Notes under the pieces: model-generated
The model's input: only the letters and a program-made list of their open reading frames with translations
Databases searched by the model: none
What the model was told of the DNA's origin: nothing
Virus record (IMG/VR): IMGVR_UViG_3300036820_000002
Span: 1 to 64,000 of that record
DNA length: 64,000 bases
Source of the DNA: a virus
Strand: one strand, 5' to 3'
Shown: positions 5,016 through 41,986 of the stretch, in pieces
How positions within the stretch are numbered: the first letter of the stretch is position 1
How the letters are laid out: each line of letters begins with the position of its first letter
Made by a program: the position numbers and the translations under genes

Positions 5016-5701
5016 CAGAACGCAGCCCGCACCGAGAGCAGCCAGTCCTGCGCAGTGCGGGTATCCGGGTATTCCGGCAGCGGGGTGGCAGATGCGCCGA
5101 ACAGGCGCCCGGCATCAGCAATCTCGGTGCGGGCTGTGTCCAGGTCACCGGCCGCGACCCGGTCCCCGAACTCCCGGCAGCGCTCCGGGTCCTGCAGCGC
5201 GACGGTGAGCATCCCGGTCCGATAAAGTTCTGTCCCCTGGATCAGCAGCCTCAGCAGGTGCCGGGCATGCTTGGCGGTCCGCTGCCTGGTACCGGAAATG
5301 TCGACATTCATTAGACCGCAGCGACGCTGCAGCCGCTCGAACTGCTGGGTGGCATACCCGAGGTAGGCGCTTTTCACCAGCGGGGCGGACAGGAAGCACT
5401 GCCGGATGGCGATCAGGTCGCTGCCCAGGGCGGTGCGCACCTCATGGAGGTCATCGGGCAGCCAGAGCAATTCGGTGACCGTCGGGTTGCAGGCCAGCAG
5501 CAGCAGCGCCAGCTTGCCCGCCTCGTGGTAGGTGACATCGGGCTTGGTGCTGATGTGAGAGCGCTCGTAGGCGGTCAGCCCCAGCAGCACCGTCGTGGGC
5601 TGCGCGAAGGTGCCCAGCCGATCAGTGTCGGAGTCCTGCGTGGCCAGCCCGTAGGCCCTGCTGCCGGTGATGCCGGAGAGCAGGATGTTAGGGATCTCCA
5701 T
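5012..5701 (-). CDS. Pol-beta superfamily nucleotidyltransferase (RlaP/YcgL-like)
   Basis: GSRAYGLATQDSDTDRLG; NPTVTELLW; KHARHLLRLL. Confidence 0.88.
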   Translation of the reverse strand: MEIPNILLSGITGSRAYGLATQDSDTDRLGTFAQPTTVLLGLTAYERSHISTKPDVTYHEAGKLALLLLACNPTVTELLWLPDDLHEVRTALGSDLIAIRQCFLSAPLVKSAYLGYATQQFERLQRRCGLMNVDISGTRQRTAKHARHLLRLLIQGTELYRTGMLTVALQDPERCREFGDRVAAGDLDTARTEIADAGRLFGASATPLPEYPDTRTAQDWLLSVRAAFW

Positions 5702-11827: not shown

Positions 11828-12105
11828 TGGCCAGGATGCTAGGTACGAACCGGGAGGCCGGATGTGGCCTCGGGAGATGTTACTACTGCCAGCGCGGGGA
11901 TGAGACCCGGCGGACCAAGCGCATTGAGGAGCGGCGGTGGCGCCGGGAGCTCGCTGATGAGATGACGCTGCTGCTGACGGAGGCGGCGCAGGTACGTGAT
12001 GGTTATGGTCCGCTGATGAGCGCGGTCTGCCTGCTGACCGGGTTCACCCCGGAGCGGGTCAATGAGCTCGGCGGGACAGGGGAACAGAATGGCGAAGAAA
12101 CCTAA
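11827..12105 (+). CDS. hypothetical protein
   Basis: ORF between SLOG gene and effector, overlapping both. Confidence 0.5.
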   Translation: MARMLGTNREAGCGLGRCYYCQRGDETRRTKRIEERRWRRELADEMTLLLTEAAQVRDGYGPLMSAVCLLTGFTPERVNELGGTGEQNGEET

Positions 12106-13621
12106 GCTTCCGTACCGGCGTGCCCAGACCTATGCCGCCGACCTGACCCCGGAACAGGAACAGGCTTTCGATGTGCTGGCGGCCGGGGTCCGCTGGGCCT
12201 GGAATCAGTGGTCCGCCTCCCAGGGTGCTCTCTGGAAAGCCCACGAGCTGCTGGAGACAACCTCTGAGCTGGGGAAGAAGATTACCGCCGCCCGTCAAGG
12301 TCATGAAATGTTCCGGTATTACACCACCAGCTGCTTGTTTACCGAGCATTCCTTTGCTGAGATTCCCCATACTTGTCTTTCTAGTGCCCTCCGCCAGTTC
12401 ACTGACGCATGGACACGTCATTTCAAGGCGCTGAAGACCGGGGCGCCCTCCTCGCCGCCTGGATTCCGCAGCTGGAAAGGCCCGCAGTCCCTGTACTGGG
12501 AGGTACAGCAGGACGATCATTCGTGTTCGCCGGGAGACGTGCTGCCCATCACGAGAGGTTCCGCCGTCCGCAGCACTCCGCATACGGCGATGCTACGGGT
12601 ACCTACCGCGCTTGGTTCTGCGATCTGCATCGGGAAGGTCAGTGTTCGCCTGCACCGGCTGCTGCCCGATGACGCCCGGGTGAATTTCGCCGTCCTGCGC
12701 CGGGATAAGATCGGGCGCTATGCGGTGACTGTCCAGTACCAGACAGCAACGGTGCGGCAGGGTGCCGCCACCGGCCTGACCGGGGTTGACCGAGGGAGTG
12801 TGGTCACAGCAGCCACTAGCTCGGGGGAGTTTTACAATGCTCCCGGCCTGACTCCCGGTCAGCTCAAACGTAAGCTCAGGCTGGAGCAGGGACTAGCTCA
12901 TAAGCGTCTAGCGAATAAGTGCATCCACGACGAGGAGATCACCGTCGGCGGTAAGATCTGGGTGAAGAGAGGCGACTGCCCTGAACCCGGTGACCCTGGC
13001 CACGACTGCCGGTGCTGGAAACATACCCGCAGCTATAAAGACCAGCAGCTTGCCTTGGCTAAGCTGTCCGTCCGTGAGCAGCGGATGCGCAAGGCAGTCT
13101 CGCACATGGCTTCCCGCGCGCTTGCTGACAGGTATGCCGTCGTGGTCATGGAAGACCTGAAGCTGTCTGCTATGACCAGGAGGGCGCACGGTCCCGGGTC
13201 GGCCGGCAAGACGGGGCGGAACCGGGAGATGCGGGCCGCGAGTTTGTACCAGCTGCAGAAACTCACTGAGTACAAGACGACGGTCGTGTATGTTCCGCCC
13301 CCCTATACCAGTCAGACCTGCCCCGCCTGCGGGCACGTGGACAAGAAAAACCGCGACGAACAGGTGTTCTGCTGCACGTCTTGTGGCCTGTCGGGTCATG
13401 CTGACGTCATCGCTGCCCGTAACATCGAGAACCTCTACGAGCGTCCCGGTGATGACTCAGATCCCGGGGGTCGCTCGCACGCAGGTCAGGATAGGGAAAT
13501 CGTACGTACGCTCGGGGAAAACCTTATCCCGGCGGCATGGGGGAGACCTGTCGCTCGCACGAGGCGACGTAAGGCCTGGTCAAAGCGGGTAAAAAAGCCG
13601 AGCCCTGGTGATAGTCTCTGA
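12089..13621 (+). CDS. compact type V CRISPR effector (TnpB/Cas12f/Cas12n-like RuvC nuclease, about 510 aa)
   Basis: RuvC-I GVDRG, RuvC-II VVMEDL, Zn ribbon YTSQTCPACG...CTSCG, RuvC-III HADVIAARNI; directly abuts CRISPR array; no tnpA. Confidence 0.9.
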   Translation: MAKKPKLPYRRAQTYAADLTPEQEQAFDVLAAGVRWAWNQWSASQGALWKAHELLETTSELGKKITAARQGHEMFRYYTTSCLFTEHSFAEIPHTCLSSALRQFTDAWTRHFKALKTGAPSSPPGFRSWKGPQSLYWEVQQDDHSCSPGDVLPITRGSAVRSTPHTAMLRVPTALGSAICIGKVSVRLHRLLPDDARVNFAVLRRDKIGRYAVTVQYQTATVRQGAATGLTGVDRGSVVTAATSSGEFYNAPGLTPGQLKRKLRLEQGLAHKRLANKCIHDEEITVGGKIWVKRGDCPEPGDPGHDCRCWKHTRSYKDQQLALAKLSVREQRMRKAVSHMASRALADRYAVVVMEDLKLSAMTRRAHGPGSAGKTGRNREMRAASLYQLQKLTEYKTTVVYVPPPYTSQTCPACGHVDKKNRDEQVFCCTSCGLSGHADVIAARNIENLYERPGDDSDPGGRSHAGQDREIVRTLGENLIPAAWGRPVARTRRRKAWSKRVKKPSPGDSL

Positions 13622-14506
13622 TCAGAGAATGAATTGCGACTAACCATTCCGCTCGCGACCCGCGTCAACAGGTCAGCTGGTGATAGTCTCTGATCAGAGA
13701 ATGAATTGCGACATCGATGACAAGCTCGGCCGCGAGAACTTCGGCCGGCTGGTGATAGTCTCTGATCAGAGAATGAATTGCGACTCATGGCAGCCATGCG
13801 ACATCTGCGGCGGCAACCTCCTGGTGATAGTCTCTGATCAGAGAATGAATTGCGACACCCCGATGCTCGTATTGGCCTCATGCCTAATGTGGCTGGTGAT
13901 AGTCTCTGAGCAGAGAATGAATTGCGACATCACGTACCTGATGACCTCGTTGTCCCCCCGGTGGTGGTGATAGTCTCTGAGCGGAGAATGAATTGCGACG
14001 CCGACTCCTGGTCCCCAGTGCTCACGCGTGCCCAGCCTGGTGATAGTCTCTGATCAGGGAATGAATTGCGACCCGAACGCCAAGGTCAGCAACCACAACA
14101 CTTACACCTAGTGATAGTCTCTGAGCAGAGAATGGATTGCGACACGAAAGCTCCCGTCTGCTCGCCGGTTTTGCCACACCTGGTGATAGTCTCTGACCAG
14201 AGAAATGAATTGCGACTTGAATCTGCGGTCCCGGCGCAACCAAGCCTGTTCCAGCTGGTGATAGTCTCTGATCAGGGAATGAATTGCGACACATCCAGAA
14301 GCCGTAGTGGAGAGCGGATCAGGCCGCTGGTGATAGTCTCTGAGCGGAGAATGAATTGCGACGGGGACATGCTGCTGTGCGAGAGCGCGGTGCCGCCTAG
14401 TGATAGTCTCTGACTAGAGAATGAATTGCGACGCCGTAACTCCCGTGATGATCGTTGGGGCAGTTGCGGGCTGGTGACAGTTTCTGACCAGAGAATGCAA
14501 TAATAA
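13605..14506 (+). CRISPR. CRISPR array, 13 repeats (last degenerate), 12 spacers of 34-38 bp
   Basis: 36-bp repeat CTGGTGATAGTCTCTGATCAGAGAATGAATTGCGAC starting at 13605, 13677, 13749, 13821, 13893, 13964, 14037, 14108, 14180, 14255, 14327, 14397, 14471. Confidence 0.98.
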
Positions 14507-14524
14507 TATGATTTAGGTAAATGA

Positions 14525-14655
14525 TAAGCAGTACCGCCGGGGCGCAACCGGTGTTAGCTACGGGTATGCCTGTCATGCAGGGGCCGCCCAGGAATCATTC
14601 TCTGTATTCTGCATGAAGAACCCCCCCGCCCTGGAAATGGGCGGGGGGGTTCTTT
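14525..14655 (+). ncRNA. candidate tracrRNA
   Basis: TCATTCTCTG (14595-14604) complementary to repeat CAGAGAATGA; loop CGCAA (14543-14547) complementary to repeat TTGCG; ends at terminator. Confidence 0.45.
14616..14654. terminator. intrinsic terminator between convergent units
   Basis: AAGAACCCCCCCGCCC/GGGCGGGGGGGTTCTT inverted repeat. Confidence 0.8.
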
Positions 14656-30994: not shown

Positions 30995-31023
30995 TTGACC
31001 CGGGTCTGCAGTATCGGTATCTT
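30995..31023 (+). promoter_or_regulatory. SigA-type promoter
   Basis: TTGACC-17bp-TATCTT. Confidence 0.65.
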
Positions 31024-31025
31024 CA

Positions 31026-31045
31026 AGCAGAGAATGAATTGCGAC
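31026..31045 (+). repeat. solitary partial CRISPR repeat (3' 20 nt)
   Basis: AGCAGAGAATGAATTGCGAC identical to the 3' end of array repeat 5. Confidence 0.85.
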
Positions 31046-31098
31046 AAGCTATCAATAGCGACTCGGGCAGCCGTGCTGCCTGAACAGGAAGGCAGTGT

Positions 31099-32100
31099 AT
31101 GCCCCGTCTCAAGAGTCTCGCTGCCGCCGCCGCGACCTCCGTGCTCACCTTCGGTGCAGCCGCAGGGATCGCGATGGCGACCGTGAGCACCCCGATCGCC
31201 ACCTCCAACGGCGAGGCGGGCTACGGCACCCAGAGCACCACCCCCCTCACTAACGTGCAGGCGGTCGTCACCCCGGACCAGTACGGCACCACCATTACCG
31301 GCGGCGCCCTCGGGGTCCAGCTCGCCGACCAGAAGAGCAGCACCGACTGCTACGCCGCCCAGCTGGGGTTGGTGGCGAACACCGCCACTTCCACCTACTC
31401 CGTCGAGTACGGCACCGGTAACCAGACGGGGACCTGCCCGGCAGTGGGCGTGGTCAGCGGTACCGCTCTCCCCGGGCTGACCTCGGTCCCGGACAACGCG
31501 TCGGTATACCTGAGCCTCTCCTACGTCACTCACGGGAAGAAGTTCTGCTTCCCGGTTCCCTGGGGCAAGCAGGGCAAGTGGGGGCATAAGCAGTACTGCT
31601 GGAGCGGCACCGGCAGTGATGGCCTCCTGGTTAGCGCCGAGGTGCTGGACAGCACCACCCCGGTCCTGGTGACCAAGATGATCCCGGACCCGGCTGACTT
31701 CACTTTCGCCAGCTTCGGCATCTCGCTGGACAATGACAGCGCGCTGATCCCGGCCGCCGCCGGCCTCGCCGAGCCCGCCACGGAGCAGGGGCTGGGTACC
31801 TTTACCGATGACGTCAGCGTTTACACCTCCTACGCGGACCAGGAGGTCGCCGAGTTCGACTACGCCAGCGTCACCCGGCAGGGCGGCAGTCCCGAGCTGA
31901 TCGACGGCACCGGCCTTACTCCTAACGCGGCGCAGGATGTCTCCGGCGGCAAGGTCGTCGCCGACATGCACGACAGCCTGACCGATGACGCCGTCTTCCC
32001 GCTGTCCCCGGCGGTCGGCACCTACACCCCGGTTAGCATCCACGGCGCCAGCACGATCGGGAACTCCTTCCAGGTGTACACCGGGAACTCGATCGGCTAA
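31099..32100 (+). CDS. secreted protein
   Basis: Signal peptide; Thr/Ser/Gly-rich; SNGEAGY N-terminus. Confidence 0.75.
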   Translation: MPRLKSLAAAAATSVLTFGAAAGIAMATVSTPIATSNGEAGYGTQSTTPLTNVQAVVTPDQYGTTITGGALGVQLADQKSSTDCYAAQLGLVANTATSTYSVEYGTGNQTGTCPAVGVVSGTALPGLTSVPDNASVYLSLSYVTHGKKFCFPVPWGKQGKWGHKQYCWSGTGSDGLLVSAEVLDSTTPVLVTKMIPDPADFTFASFGISLDNDSALIPAAAGLAEPATEQGLGTFTDDVSVYTSYADQEVAEFDYASVTRQGGSPELIDGTGLTPNAAQDVSGGKVVADMHDSLTDDAVFPLSPAVGTYTPVSIHGASTIGNSFQVYTGNSIG

Positions 32101-37392: not shown

Positions 37393-37477
37393 GGGCGAGT
37401 GGTGGAATGGTAGACACGCATGCCTCAGGAGTATGTGTCTTAACGACGTGGGGGTTCGACTCCCCCCTCGCCTACCA
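37393..37477 (+). tRNA. tRNA-Leu(CAG)
   Basis: Cloverleaf with long arm, encoded CCA. Confidence 0.9.
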
Positions 37478-37557
37478 GCAGGAAGCTTTTATGATAGAAC
37501 CCGGATTCCCGGGTACTGTCTGACGGACTCCATAACCCGGGCTTCCTGCTGTTTTCC

Positions 37558-37646
37558 GGAGTGGTCGCCTAGTCCGGCCCATGGCGCTCGACTGCTAATC
37601 GAGTGGGGTCTCACCGCCCTCGGGAGTTCAAATCTCCCCCGCTCCG
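37558..37646 (+). tRNA. tRNA-Ser(GCT)
   Basis: Cloverleaf with long arm. Confidence 0.88.
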
Positions 37647-37677
37647 CCCTGTTTCAGTGAACTGAAGGAAGAGATAC

Positions 37678-38253
37678 GTGATGATACGGTCGGCTGTTCT
37701 CGCAGCAGCAGCTGCCATGACGGCAGCGATTGCCCTGGCTGTCCCTGCTGGTGCGGTGACGGGACCTCCGGCCGGCTCCCGGGGAACCGGGGTGATCTCG
37801 GTGAGGACGAGCAAGGAGAAGCTCTGCCTGACCGCCCTGGGCAGCGGGGTGGTCGTGGCCAAGCCGTGCGTATCCAGGCTCAGCGACGAAGGGGACGGGC
37901 AGGCGTGGTTGCTGTCCCGTTATGACGGCTTCCTGGCCGTGAGGTCAGTCCGCGAGTCAGGTGAGTGCCTGGGGTCGCGTGGCGGGACGGCTTCCGCTGT
38001 GCTGGTGAGCTGCACGGCGAGCAATGAGGGCGGTGACGCTCTCCGCTACGTGGAACTGGGTGACGACGCGTGTCCCGGTATCGCTGCCACCTCAGATTGC
38101 GCCGAGATCACGCTGGTTAACGGGCGTAAGCTGACCGCCTGGGTCGCGGCCCGGGGCCATCGTGACTCCTATGCCGTCGTGACCTGGGATGAGGATCCGG
38201 GAGGCATGAACGTCCGGTTTACCTGGGCGGTGCCGGGGTGGCATCATGATTAG
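37678..38253 (+). CDS. secreted ricin-B lectin-like protein
   Basis: Signal peptide; LCLTA...KPC...GQAW, ECLGS...VSC. Confidence 0.65.
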   Translation: MMIRSAVLAAAAAMTAAIALAVPAGAVTGPPAGSRGTGVISVRTSKEKLCLTALGSGVVVAKPCVSRLSDEGDGQAWLLSRYDGFLAVRSVRESGECLGSRGGTASAVLVSCTASNEGGDALRYVELGDDACPGIAATSDCAEITLVNGRKLTAWVAARGHRDSYAVVTWDEDPGGMNVRFTWAVPGWHHD

Positions 38254-38259
38254 CAGGAG

Positions 38260-38295
38260 CTGGTGATAGTCTCTGACCAGAGAATGAATTGCGAC
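38260..38295 (+). repeat. solitary full-length CRISPR repeat
   Basis: CTGGTGATAGTCTCTGACCAGAGAATGAATTGCGAC, 35/36 to consensus. Confidence 0.95.
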
Positions 38296-38408
38296 AGGAA
38301 TTGCGGCAAGGACCTGTACCGGGAGTGCTTTGACTGCTGGGACGGGTACCATGTCTACGCTACGACACCGGGGAGCAGGATCAGGTGCCCTCCGTGTGAC
38401 CAGAAGAA

Positions 38409-38533
38409 GACCGGGAAGGTGGGCTTAGAGGCAGCCATCCTCTAAGGAGTGAGAGTACCGGCGTGAGGCGTCGGCGGAGCGCCTGGCCTCACCGGGCAGC
38501 TCCGGTCTCTTCGGCGTAACAGCACACCCGGTC
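38409..38533 (+). ncRNA. 23S rRNA L11-binding (GTPase-associated centre, H43-H44) mimic
   Basis: GACCGGGAAGGTGGGCTTAGAGGCAGCCATCCTCTAAGGAGT...GCGTAACAGCACACCCGGTC aligns to 23S nt about 1050-1108 with a hairpin insertion. Confidence 0.75.
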
Positions 38534-38584
38534 AGTCCTGATGGTGTACAGTGAACAGGGAAAAGAAAGAACAGTGAGGAACGG

Positions 38585-39055
38585 ATGAGACTCGCCGAGG
38601 CGCTGCGTGAGCGCGCCGATACCCAGAAGAAGCTCGCGCAGCTGAGTCACCGCATCAGCGAGAACGCCCGGGTCCATGAGGGGGATACCCCCGACGAGGC
38701 CCCCCTGGATCTCCTGGCTGAGGCCAGGGTGAGGATGATCACGCTGGAAGAGCTGATCCGGCGCATCAACGCGACGAACGCCGCGACTCCGCTGACCCCG
38801 GAGATGACGCTCACCGCCGCGATGGCCCGCCGCGAGGCGCTGACCAACCTGCAGAAGTTCCTCACTGCCGCCGCCGATGCTGCCGCCGGCGGTACTGCTG
38901 ACCGGATGTGGGGCCGCCGCCGCGCGACTGAGCTCCGGGAGGTGGCGGCCTTGCCGGTGAAGGACCTCCGCGCCGAAGCGGACCGGGTGTCCGGGGAGCT
39001 GAGGAAGCTGTCCATGAGCATCGAGGAAATGAACTGGAAGACGGAACTGATGTAG
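38585..39055 (+). CDS. DIP1984/DUF6847-family protein
   Basis: MRLAEALRERAD...NARVHEGDTPDE...IRRINATN...IEEMNWKTEL. Confidence 0.88.
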   Translation: MRLAEALRERADTQKKLAQLSHRISENARVHEGDTPDEAPLDLLAEARVRMITLEELIRRINATNAATPLTPEMTLTAAMARREALTNLQKFLTAAADAAAGGTADRMWGRRRATELREVAALPVKDLRAEADRVSGELRKLSMSIEEMNWKTELM

Positions 39056-39059
39056 AGGG

Positions 39060-39250
39060 GAAGACGGTAGCTGCTCGTCACCCGTCCGGGGTGAGTACGC
39101 AATCCTCGCAAGATTCATGGTCTTGCATCACAGCACATGCGCGGGGCCGCATGACAATCATTACCAGTCAGCCCAGCATCTATGCAGCAGTCAGCGGCGG
39201 AAGCCGTTACCAGTTATTTTTATCACCATGTGCTAACCGGACAGGATTAC
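39060..39250 (+). ncRNA. candidate structured RNA downstream of DIP1984 gene
   Basis: Several long-range complementary blocks including a possible pseudoknot. Confidence 0.4.
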
Positions 39251-39252
39251 TG

Positions 39253-39660
39253 ATGGCAGCGAGGGCGGGCCAGGGGAATTCCCCCCAGCAGAAGCCTTTC
39301 TTGAGCATACGGCTCAAGGATTGTGAGGTGCAGACGTTCCAGTCCGGCGGACCGGGCGGCCAGCACCAGAATCATTCCAATACCGGGGTCCGGATCATCC
39401 ACCGGGCGTCCGGGGCCCGTGGGGAGTCGCGGGAGGAACGTAGCCAGCTGCTGAACAAGAAGGCGGCGTTCCGGCGGATGACAGAACATGTGATGTTCCG
39501 GGTGTGGGTGAACCGGATGATCTTCTATGCCGGGAAATCCCCGGAGGAGAGGGTGAAGGAAGACCTGGTACCGCAGAATCTGCGCACGGAAGCCCGTCGC
39601 GGGAACCGGTGGGTACCTTATGCGGCAGAAGGGAATGATCATGGCGGAACCGCAGGATGA
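39253..39660 (+). CDS. RF-1 domain peptidyl-tRNA hydrolase (ArfB/PrfH-like)
   Basis: SGGPGGQHQNHSNTGVRIIH...ERSQLLNKKAAF. Confidence 0.9.
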   Translation: MAARAGQGNSPQQKPFLSIRLKDCEVQTFQSGGPGGQHQNHSNTGVRIIHRASGARGESREERSQLLNKKAAFRRMTEHVMFRVWVNRMIFYAGKSPEERVKEDLVPQNLRTEARRGNRWVPYAAEGNDHGGTAG

Positions 39661-39798
39661 CCAGGCTGACGAGGAAATCATCGAGGAGCTCGTCAAGGGC
39701 TATTCCGGTGACGGCCTGTTCCGCGAGCAGAACTCGCCGCACCCGAAGTAATGGAGATGAACGGGCAGGAGCGCACCTCTCACGGAGGGGTGCGCCGG

Positions 39799-39870
39799 AC
39801 GCGGGTAGCTCAGCGGCAGAGCGACGCTCAGATGAAGCGGAGGCCGGTGGTCCGAGTCCACCCCCGCGTA
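39799..39870 (+). tRNA. atypical tRNA with GAT anticodon (possibly pseudo)
   Basis: Acceptor ACGCGGG/CCCGCGT, normal D arm, loop CA-GAT-GA, T-loop TCC. Confidence 0.6.
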
Positions 39871-41903: not shown

Positions 41904-41986
41904 GCCGTCGTTGCTCTGATGGTGAGGGGCCGCCGCCCTTTCATGGCGGATTAGCGACGGGGGTTCGATTCCCCCCGGCGGCACCA
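41904..41986 (+). tRNA. tRNA-Glu(TTC), atypical length
   Basis: CCGCC-CT-TTC-AT-GGCGG, canonical T arm, encoded CCA. Confidence 0.7.

What the first reader, a model, noticed from the sequence alone, without database searches (positions are those of the whole stretch)
38260..38340. Second solitary CRISPR repeat, full length, embedded in the tRNA cluster
Seen: a 35/36 match to the array repeat, 6 nt after a lectin gene stop and 24 kb from the array, with no second repeat at spacer distance. Its internal ATG opens a 53-aa Cys-rich ORF (MNCDRNCGKD...). Together with 31026 this suggests a distributed guide system in which extra crRNAs come from strong transcripts, or ectopic repeat integration.
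Basis: partly seen in the sequence, partly recalled or inferred. Interest (0 to 1): 0.75.

Follow-up and report, generated by a model that had tools for sequence, protein, structure and literature searches.

The report
Stray CRISPR repeat starting a phage gene
A soil phage that carries its own miniature CRISPR system has a genuine stray copy of its CRISPR repeat far from the array, sitting at a gene junction where it supplies the start of a small conserved zinc-ribbon gene; it looks more like a co-opted leftover than a purpose-built extra guide.

Summary
Positions 38260-38295 are a full 36-nt copy (35/36) of the repeat of the array at 13605-14506. Shuffles give none by chance, and an independently built contig bridges it.

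The window is the first 64 kb of a complete 130-kb phage. A 519-aa TnpB/Cas12-like gene ends inside the first array repeat. There is no Cas1 or Cas2.

This solo is one of four:
- 38260 (+)
- 111282 (-)
- 128778 (-)
- a 20-nt 3' fragment at 31026 (+)

All four lie at gene boundaries inside + strand gene blocks, so two are antisense to local transcription.

At 38260 the repeat provides the only start codons of a real gene, which has a 55%-identical homologue in the one backbone relative. That relative has neither the repeat nor the lectin-like gene at this site.

The "guide" after the repeat is the phage's own coding sequence, and no target was found anywhere. Two other phages with homologous effector-array modules have no solos.

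My best reading (about 0.5) is an array-derived ectopic repeat, now co-opted as a gene start. Its transcript would incidentally look like a crRNA. A deliberate single-repeat guide that attacks repeat-less alleles of related phages is not excluded (about 0.2).

The parts
38260..38295 (+). Solitary full-length CRISPR repeat (the finding); 35/36 to the array consensus
   Evidence: bridged by an independent contig
38263..38445 (+). Zn-ribbon ORF (CxxC...CxxC). It is 60 aa from GTG 38263 or 53 aa from ATG 38284. Both possible starts lie inside the repeat.
   Evidence: Homologue in relative phage G001 (L008 4959-5111), 55% identity with synonymous third-position changes. No in-frame start exists downstream of the repeat (read).
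38254..38259 (+). CAGGAG, a Shine-Dalgarno-like hexamer 3 nt before GTG 38263
   Evidence: read; inference
38298..38307 (+). GAATTGCGGC: a 9/10 copy of the repeat's last 10 nt, 2 nt after the solo. Possible stump of a second repeat.
   Evidence: My chance estimate for an 8-mer of the repeat within 40 nt is about 0.015.
37678..38253 (+). Secreted lectin-like ORF (weak Ricin-B hit) that ends 6 nt before the repeat. In relative G001 its homologue sits at a different locus.
37557..37649 (+). tRNA-Ser(gct). In G001 the Zn-ribbon gene follows this tRNA directly, with no lectin gene and no repeat.
13605..14506 (+). Parent CRISPR array: 13 repeats of 36 nt (one of 37) and 12 spacers
12062..13621 (+). 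519-aa TnpB/Cas12-like effector whose stop codon lies inside the first repeat
31026..31045 (+). Partial solo: the last 20 nt of the repeat (20/20 to array repeat 13893), in the 5' UTR of ORF 31099-32100
30995..31023 (+). Promoter-like site (TTGACC-17-TATCTT) that would start transcription at about the first bases of the partial repeat
   Evidence: 1 found; 0.1 expected in shuffles of 1 kb
14484..14655 (+). Weak tracrRNA candidate after the array: promoter-like site, a 10-nt anti-repeat at 14595-14604, and a terminator-like hairpin
   Evidence: not found in relatives

Best explanation
The element is a genuine ectopic copy of the phage's own type V (TnpB-derived, Cas12-like) CRISPR repeat. It is one of four in the genome.

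Origin (inferred). It most likely came from the array by recombination, or by insertion of a repeat or mini-array unit that later collapsed. It survived because it sits at a gene junction.

Current role in the DNA (shown). It is the 5' end of a conserved zinc-ribbon gene. It supplies that gene's only start codons and its first 4-11 codons, directly after a lectin-like gene that lies elsewhere in the nearest relative.

Not an acquired-spacer guide (shown). The sequence that follows it is the phage's own coding sequence.

Behaviour as RNA (inferred). It is a complete repeat in sense orientation inside a + strand gene block. Its transcript would therefore probably be bound or processed by the effector like an array unit. 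That would yield a crRNA-like RNA whose guide equals the gene's first codons. This RNA would be harmless to the phage itself, because the matching DNA is flanked by the repeat, exactly as in the array. I regard this as a by-product and not the reason the element exists.
For: Real and fixed.

Four solos in mixed orientation. Copies lie at 38260 (+), 111282 (-), 128778 (-) and a partial one at 31026 (+), all inside + strand gene blocks. Mixed orientation is what relics would show and not what selected guides would show.

Exact repeat boundaries. None of the three full copies carries any spacer sequence at its edges. Collapse of repeat-spacer units would produce this.

Repeat stumps next to the solos. 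These are GAATTGCGGC at 38298, TCAATAGCGAC at 31052, and GTGATAT directly after solo 111282.

Gene fusions.
- The Zn-ribbon gene is conserved in G001, and homology begins just after the repeat-derived codons.
- PTH2 has a 33-aa N-terminal extension that contains the reverse-complemented repeat in frame. G001's PTH2 lacks it: 140 aa against 167 aa, and the Pfam match starts at residue 34.

Mosaic junction. The lectin-like homologue in G001 lies about 1.6 kb downstream of PTH2, not in the tRNA cluster.

No targets found for the would-be guides.
- Own genome.
- Loci of relatives.
- GenBank phages.
- IMG/VR.
- One-genome-per-species collection, tested only for the 31046 stretch.

Not a family feature. 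There are 0 solos in G002 (210 kb, complete) and 0 in G005 (159 kb).
Against: - Solos 38260 and 111282 differ from the consensus only at positions that also vary within the array. They have no private substitution in 72 nt. That fits either a recent origin or constraint.
- Solo 128778 pairs C13 with G22, where the array has T-A or T·G. This is a compensatory change that preserves the hairpin.
- The partial solo keeps exactly the 3' 20 nt and has a promoter placed to start at it. That looks designed.
- Four solos here against none in two other phages is unexplained.
- No relative is close enough to show an empty site, so insertion is inferred and not seen.
- The solos at 111 kb and 128 kb were not checked against an independent assembly.
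Confidence: 0.5

Rival explanations
1. It is a purpose-built single-repeat guide, following omega-RNA logic. The repeat plus the adjacent native sequence is transcribed and loaded into the phage's nuclease. The complex then cuts the uninterrupted allele of the same locus in co-infecting related phages. The result is exclusion of the rival, or copying of the repeat and its neighbouring cargo (the lectin-like gene) into it by recombinational repair.
For: - The effector is TnpB-derived and keeps three invariant acidic residues, D243, E364 and D448, in 22 of 22 family members.
- The solo is a full repeat in sense orientation, with its guide-side flank being the start of a conserved gene.
- The solo sits exactly where a cargo gene absent from this site in G001 meets a conserved gene.
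- The 3' half of the repeat is intact in all four solos, and the partial one has its own promoter.
- The hairpin is preserved by a compensatory change in solo 128778.
- TnpB nucleases are described as promoting their own spread by targeted cleavage and homologous recombination (abstract of 10.1101/2023.11.30.569447, seen in the listing).
Against: - Two of the four solos are antisense to local transcription, and no promoter-like site was found for them.
- No repeat-less allele appears among the contigs of run X1.
- No match to 38296-38317 exists in IMG/VR.
- The PAM is unknown, and the upstream flanks of the solos share no motif.
- Homologous systems in two other phages have no solos.
Confidence: 0.2
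2. It is a cis-regulatory handle. The effector (or a tracrRNA with RNase III) binds or cuts the repeat within the mRNA. This would uncouple the lectin-like and Zn-ribbon cistrons and occlude the start codons that lie in the repeat. Expression of the adjacent genes would then be tied to the level of the CRISPR effector. The antisense copies would instead pair with pre-crRNA.
For: - Both candidate start codons and the weak SD-like AGAGA lie inside the repeat and its hairpin.
- All four solos sit within 0-55 nt of, or inside, the 5' ends of genes.
- A 36-nt anti-repeat lies within the PTH2 mRNA 5' region.
Against: - The Zn-ribbon gene, PTH2, an HNH-like fragment and a secreted protein share no evident function that would explain co-regulation.
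- The relative G001 expresses the same genes without the element.
- How the effector processes RNA is unknown.
- The tracrRNA candidate is weak and is absent in relatives.
Confidence: 0.15
3. It is a selfish palindromic mini-element. The 36-nt unit itself inserts into new sites, as REP or Rickettsia palindromic elements do (recalled comparison, no call). It lands in intergenic DNA or in frame at gene ends.
For: - Copies occur in both orientations, have exact boundaries, and are 36 nt long (12 codons).
- The two solos that lie inside genes are read without a stop codon.
- Solo 128778 is flanked by a 7-nt direct repeat, TCATCGG, adjacent to both ends. This has p=0.0028 per site in 50,000 random sites.
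Against: - Flanking duplications are absent or not significant at the other three sites: 4 nt (p=0.07), 1 nt and 1 nt.
- There are no terminal inverted repeats.
- No transposase partner was identified, and the genome holds only one TnpB-like gene.
- The repeat pattern occurs in no other record of three collections.
Confidence: 0.08
4. It is an RNA anti-CRISPR decoy (Racr-type SRU) that sequesters the Cas proteins of a host or of a rival.
For: Solitary repeats in viral genomes are known, and some act as Racrs (PMC10651486, passages read).
Against: - The repeat matches the phage's own array and effector, so a decoy would poison its own system.
- There are 0 matches to the repeat pattern in one genome for each of 185,579 species.
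- No promoter-like site lies in 37400-39200.
- The element overlaps a conserved ORF's start instead of being a free small RNA gene.
Confidence: 0.03
5. It is a chance match or an assembly artefact.
For: None found.
Against: Shuffles give 0.00 matches. A second assembler's contig bridges the site with 0 differences at about 240x depth.
Confidence: 0.01

Closest known systems
Viral solitary repeat units (SRUs) / RNA anti-CRISPRs (Racrs); PMC10651486 (passages read); review PMC11656645 (passages read)
   Same: A single CRISPR repeat standing alone in a phage genome, far from any array. [quoted passage not shown]
   Different: - SRUs are described as not associated with cas genes and as matching the host's CRISPR subtype. 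This repeat is the phage's own, with effector and array in the same genome, and no host match was found.
- The 38260 copy has no promoter of its own and forms the start of a protein-coding gene.
- Two of the four copies are antisense to local transcription.
Delocalized or atypical crRNAs of CRISPR-associated transposons (as described in PMC11656645)
   Same: A repeat-like sequence plus an adjacent guide-like sequence encoded outside the array and used by the same effector.
   Different: - CAST delocalized crRNAs lie near the element, have only partly matching repeats, and target a known homing site.
- This copy is 24 kb from the array and near-identical to the array repeat.
- Its 'guide' is the phage's own gene, and no target is known.
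TnpB omega-RNA architecture and TnpB-driven homing (abstract of 10.1101/2023.11.30.569447 and title/abstract of PMC10691335, listing; otherwise recalled)
   Same: The effector is TnpB-family (NCBIfam NF040570, 142 bits against a cut-off of 100). A solo repeat followed by native flanking DNA repeats the omega-RNA logic, in which the guide is whatever lies beside the element's end.
   Different: No transposon ends, no TnpA and no empty site were observed. The system has a true multi-spacer array. The scaffold or tracrRNA requirement is unknown.
Noncanonical crRNAs derived from cellular transcripts (PMC8224270; title and start of abstract only)
   Same: mRNAs that contain a repeat-like stretch can be turned into guides.
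   Different: That case concerns Cas9 with tracrRNA pairing to imperfect repeat look-alikes. This is an exact full repeat of a type V system, and no RNA data exist.
CRISPR-RNA-like regulators (crlRNA; abstract of 10.1101/2024.12.27.630466)
   Same: A repeat-like unit outside the array used by the effector.
   Different: Those regulators carry guides with partial matches to promoters in the same genome. No match of more than 12 nt exists here.

Membership tests
SRU / Racr (viral RNA anti-CRISPR) | A single repeat with no other full or half repeat within about 100 bp | tested here: met
   Only an 8-10-nt echo lies at 38298-38307. There are no further matches within the flanks.
SRU / Racr (viral RNA anti-CRISPR) | Not associated with cas genes in the element; mimics the host's CRISPR repeat | tested here: not met
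   The same genome has a TnpB/Cas12-like effector and a 13-repeat array. The repeat pattern gives 0 hits in genome contigs.
SRU / Racr (viral RNA anti-CRISPR) | [quoted passage not shown] | tested here: not met
   No promoter-like or terminator-like site lies in 37400-39200. The repeat carries the start codons of a conserved ORF. Expression itself could not be tested, because no RNA run was listed.
SRU / Racr (viral RNA anti-CRISPR) | Binds Cas proteins and inhibits interference | not testable with these tools
   Needs experiments.
Delocalized crRNA (CAST-type homing guide) | A repeat-like plus guide-like unit outside the array | tested here: met
Delocalized crRNA (CAST-type homing guide) | The guide matches a defined target (homing) site | tested here: not met
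   There is no match of more than 12 nt in the phage. There is none in IMG/VR for 38296-38317, and only a chance-level hit in GenBank phages. The metagenome scan gave no answer.
Delocalized crRNA (CAST-type homing guide) | Encoded beside the CRISPR/transposition module | tested here: not met
   It lies 23.75 kb from the array end.
crRNA-like transcriptional regulators (crlRNA type) | Partial guide match to a promoter in the same genome | tested here: not met
   the best matches of the four pseudo-guides are 10-12 nt, which is chance level.
Type V CRISPR-Cas (parent system of the repeat) | TnpB/Cas12-fold effector with a RuvC triad | tested here: met
   PF07282 scores 64 bits (cut-off 26.3) and NF040570 scores 142 bits (cut-off 100). 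D243, E364 and D448 are invariant in 22/22 sequences. Reading these as the RuvC triad rests on recalled motif knowledge.
Type V CRISPR-Cas (parent system of the repeat) | An adjacent regular array with unique spacers | tested here: met
   The same layout occurs in relatives G002 (20 repeats) and G003-5 (12 repeats).
Type V CRISPR-Cas (parent system of the repeat) | Assignment to a named subtype (V-F, V-U and so on) | tested here: inconclusive
   Cas12f2 (47 bits against 450) and C2c8 (51 bits against 350) are far below cut-off. The best solved relative is a 540-aa 'Transposase', 9j09, at E=9e-28 over the C-terminal third only.
TnpB omega-RNA-type homing unit | The guide is the DNA that abuts the RNA scaffold's end | tested here: met
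   The repeat is followed directly by native gene sequence.
TnpB omega-RNA-type homing unit | An empty-site allele with a TAM beside the target | tested here: inconclusive
   No repeat-less joint appears among the contigs of run X1, although contigs drop rare variants. G001 is too diverged to align at the junction. The PAM/TAM is unknown.

The most novel reading that the evidence does not exclude
The solos are self-made 'allele-drive' guides. Any insertion of the phage's repeat automatically creates a guide RNA against the uninterrupted version of that site. The phage's TnpB-like nuclease would then cut co-infecting relatives that lack the insertion. The cut rival would be either destroyed or converted, copying the repeat and its neighbouring cargo gene. 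This would be a living intermediate between transposon omega-RNAs and CRISPR arrays, operating between phages.
Probability: 0.12. Interest if true: 0.85.

Novelty: new variant of a known kind. Interest (0 to 1): 0.45.

Why it matters
Solitary repeats in phages are currently read as decoys that mimic the host's CRISPR system. In this phage the solitary repeats belong to its own TnpB-derived CRISPR system, and two of them are built into the 5' ends of conserved genes.

If they are relics, they record how array repeats disperse and get co-opted as coding sequence in a mosaic phage genome.

If they are used, they would show a single repeat turning adjacent native DNA into a guide. That step is postulated between transposon omega-RNAs and CRISPR arrays.

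Either way, the locus offers a compact, testable case: one effector, one array and four solos.

Tried and rejected
Expression. No RNA holder was listed for 37600-39100. Only one DNA run was listed, and it is probably the source sample.

Protospacer searches, all negative or at chance level.
- Array against GenBank phages.
- Array against plasmids: one hit at E=0.8.
- 38254-38345 against phages: E=10.
- 38296-38317 in IMG/VR.
- 31046-31064 in genome contigs and IMG/VR.
- All spacers and pseudo-guides against the phage itself.
- The same against all fetched loci.

Repeat pattern in public collections. There were 0 hits in each of viral, metagenome and genome contigs. The window's own record may be masked in these collections.

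Closer relatives of the backbone.
- The Zn-ribbon and lectin-like queries found only one contig, G001.
- GenBank phages gave nothing near.
- The protein database had no Zn-ribbon homologue.

Metagenome scans. Relatives in metagenomes therefore remain unsearched by protein.

tracrRNA. A 10-nt anti-repeat with a promoter-like and a terminator-like site follows the array. Nothing comparable exists in L015 or L017, so I do not rely on it.

Degenerate 5' half at 31026. Rejected: 3462 of 5000 random 25-mers score as well.

Target-site duplications. Significant at one of four solos only.

Rfam. No family matches 37600-39800 apart from chance rows.

Covariation count for the repeat hairpin across phages. 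Abandoned, because the stems are in different registers in alignment A8.

Paper supplements were not opened. The SRU lists of PMC10651486 may or may not include this record.

Full report
CONTEXT

The window is the first 64 kb of a 130,268-bp virus record. Its ends overlap by 127 bp, so it is a closed assembly. GC content is 65%.

It carries 42 tRNA genes at 32.7-44.4 kb. It also carries a CRISPR array at 13605-14506 with 13 repeats of 36 nt (one of 37) and 12 spacers of 34-38 nt. The four leader-side repeats are identical and the last repeat is degenerate.

A 519-aa ORF (12062-13621) ends inside the first repeat. It is a TnpB/Cas12-family protein:
- PF07282 scores 64 bits and NF040570 scores 142 bits, against a cut-off of 100 for the latter.
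- The named Cas12 subtype models score far below their cut-offs.
- Its nearest homologues are 37-50% identical metagenomic proteins of 500-590 aa.
- D243, E364 and D448 are invariant in 22 of 22 aligned members. I read these as the RuvC triad from recalled motif knowledge.

The genome has no Cas1 or Cas2 and no second TnpB-like gene.

THE OBSERVATION

Positions 38260-38295 match the repeat at 35 of 36 positions. The mismatch (T18C) lies in the hairpin loop and is shared with array repeats 14180 and 14471. Shuffled sequence gives no such match.

A contig built by another assembler from run X1 covers 37618-39500 without a single difference. That run is probably the source sample.
- The upstream ORF stops 6 nt before the repeat.
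- The array end is 23.75 kb away.
- No second repeat lies at spacer distance.
- A 53-aa ORF opens at the repeat's ATG.

THE SOLO IS ONE OF FOUR

A genome-wide scan finds these further copies:
- A full copy at 111282-111317 on the minus strand, with 2 mismatches, both at positions that also vary in the array.
- A more diverged copy at 128778-128812 on the minus strand, 31/36 with one deleted base.
- The last 20 nt of the repeat at 31026-31045 on the plus strand, 20/20 to array repeat 13893.

The sequence upstream of the partial copy is not a decayed 5' half. All four sit inside blocks of + strand genes. Two are therefore sense and two are antisense to local transcription.

ANATOMY AT 38260

The ORF is a real gene. 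The only backbone relative found is a 49-kb IMG/VR fragment, G001. It has a syntenic cluster of 43 tRNAs. Between tRNA-Ser(gct) and tRNA-Ser(gga) it has a homologous CxxC...CxxC ORF that is 55% identical, with synonymous third-position differences.

In G001 that gene follows the tRNA directly, with no lectin-like gene and no repeat. Homology to G001 begins right after the codons contributed by the repeat.

In the window no in-frame start codon exists downstream of the repeat. The gene must therefore start at one of two codons inside it:
- GTG 38263, which lies 3 nt after CAGGAG.
- ATG 38284.

The lectin-like gene has a 54-56% identical homologue in G001 at another locus, about 1.6 kb downstream of PTH2. 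The solo therefore marks a mosaic junction between a relocated accessory gene and a conserved gene.

Two nt after the solo lies GAATTGCGGC, a 9/10 copy of the repeat's last 10 nt. My chance estimate for this is about 0.015. It may be the stump of a second repeat.

THE OTHER SOLOS

At 111282 the reverse-complemented repeat lies in frame within a 33-aa N-terminal extension of a PTH2 peptidyl-tRNA hydrolase.
- The Pfam match begins at residue 34.
- G001's PTH2 is 140 aa and lacks the extension.
- No alternative start lies between the repeat and the domain.
- The leader-type repeat would place TGA in this frame. The solo's loop variant does not (read).

At 128778 the reverse-complemented repeat sits between the stop codon of one ORF and, 23 nt further on, the start of a 70-aa fragment with a weak HNH-endonuclease PHROG hit.
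- It is flanked by a 7-nt direct repeat. This has p=0.0028 per site, and the other three sites are not significant.
- Its hairpin carries a compensatory C13-G22 pair.

At 31026 a promoter-like site (TTGACC-17-TATCTT) would start transcription at about the first bases of the fragment. One such site was found against 0.1 expected.

ARE THE SOLOS GUIDES?

The sequence after each solo is the phage's own gene or UTR. I looked for targets and found none:
- None of the four stretches, and none of the 12 spacers, matches elsewhere in the phage beyond chance.
- Nothing matches in the loci of relatives.
- Nothing significant matches in GenBank phages or plasmids.
- The two pseudo-guides tried have no exact match in IMG/VR.
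- The 31046 pseudo-guide has no exact match in the species genome collection.

The repeat itself occurs in no other record of the three collections.

The effector family does occur with arrays of the same layout in other phages. The array starts at the effector's 3' end, and the repeats are 36-37 nt ending in GCGAC. Those phages share only the effector with this one. They have no solos: 0 in the complete 210-kb G002 and 0 in the 159-kb G005.

No RNA data are available.

INTERPRETATION

The following features fit array-derived ectopic repeats or collapsed mini-arrays that survived at gene boundaries:
- exact repeat boundaries without spacer remnants;
- mixed orientation;
- placement at gene junctions;
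- neighbouring repeat stumps;
- restriction to one lineage.

Two of these repeats became fused to gene starts. This is my best explanation (0.5).

The 38260 copy is complete and in sense orientation, so the effector would probably recognise its transcript. The resulting crRNA-like RNA would be harmless to the phage, because the matching DNA is flanked by the repeat, as in the array. These last steps are inferred, not shown.

Four observations keep a functional reading alive:
- There are no private substitutions in two of the solos.
- The hairpin-preserving change in solo 128778.
- The promoter at the partial copy.
- The unexplained number of solos in this one phage.

The most interesting such reading is a guide against repeat-less alleles of related phages (0.2 as a rival; 0.12 in its full drive form). 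A cis-regulatory role (0.15) and a selfish mini-element (0.08) are further rivals. A Racr-type decoy (0.03) fails two defining features. An artefact is excluded for practical purposes.

COMPARISON WITH KNOWN SYSTEMS

The nearest known kind is the viral solitary repeat unit (PMC10651486; PMC11656645). Those units are defined as lacking associated cas genes and as matching host systems, and this element does neither.

CAST delocalized crRNAs and mRNA-derived noncanonical crRNAs (PMC8224270, abstract only) share the form but not the context.

I found no description of solitary copies of a phage's own CRISPR repeat fused to gene starts. That rests on three full-text searches with the terms 'solitary repeat'+CRISPR+phage, 'delocalized crRNA'+homing, and 'noncanonical crRNAs'+'host transcripts'. 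This is a narrow search and not proof of absence.

CORRECTION TO THE NOTEBOOK

The conserved block in G001 is at L008 5126-5164, not 5121-5159 as written in note 3.

Noticed in passing
window 38413-38451 (and L008 5126-5164): A 39-nt block (GGGAAGG...TAAGGAGTG) is 37/39 identical between this phage and G001. It is better conserved than the Zn-ribbon coding sequence before it. It lies inside the ORF here but after the stop codon in G001. It forms a small hairpin and has no Rfam match.
   Followed up: partly
window 12062-14506: A phage-borne type V locus: a 519-aa TnpB-like effector whose stop codon lies inside the first of 13 repeats. There is no Cas1 or Cas2. The same module occurs in otherwise unrelated phages (G002, G003-5).
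   Followed up: yes
window 14484-14655: A possible tracrRNA after the array: a promoter-like site, a 10-nt anti-repeat (14595-14604), and a GC-rich terminator-like hairpin. No counterpart was found in relatives.
   Followed up: partly
window 38585-39660; G000 111265-111771: Translation-rescue genes accompany the 42-tRNA cluster. They are a DUF6847 ORF, an RF-1-domain (ArfB-like) ORF, and, elsewhere in the genome, a PTH2 peptidyl-tRNA hydrolase.
   Followed up: no
L016 11500-11900: A 101-kb viral contig has a 49%-identical effector but no regular array. It has only scattered repeat 3' ends (..GAGGTGCGAC), which looks like a decayed array.
   Followed up: partly
L015 11600-12954 (G002): The 20-repeat array of the 210-kb relative contains two very short spacers (10 and 15 nt). 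Internal deletions within arrays therefore occur in this family.
   Followed up: no
G000 128837-129049 (L010 3338-3550): A 70-aa ORF next to solo 128778 has a weak hit to an HNH-endonuclease PHROG (E=8e-4) covering only the first third of the profile. It may be a truncated homing endonuclease.
   Followed up: partly
L003 9352-9696 and 12227-12625: An unrelated IMG/VR contig fetched through its TnpB carries two arrays of 29-nt type I-E-like repeats (..CCCCGCACACGCGGGGATAAACC). The subtype label is recalled from memory.
   Followed up: no
window 41904-41986: tRNA-Glu(ttc) is called at 83 nt, longer than its neighbours. It was not examined.
   Followed up: no
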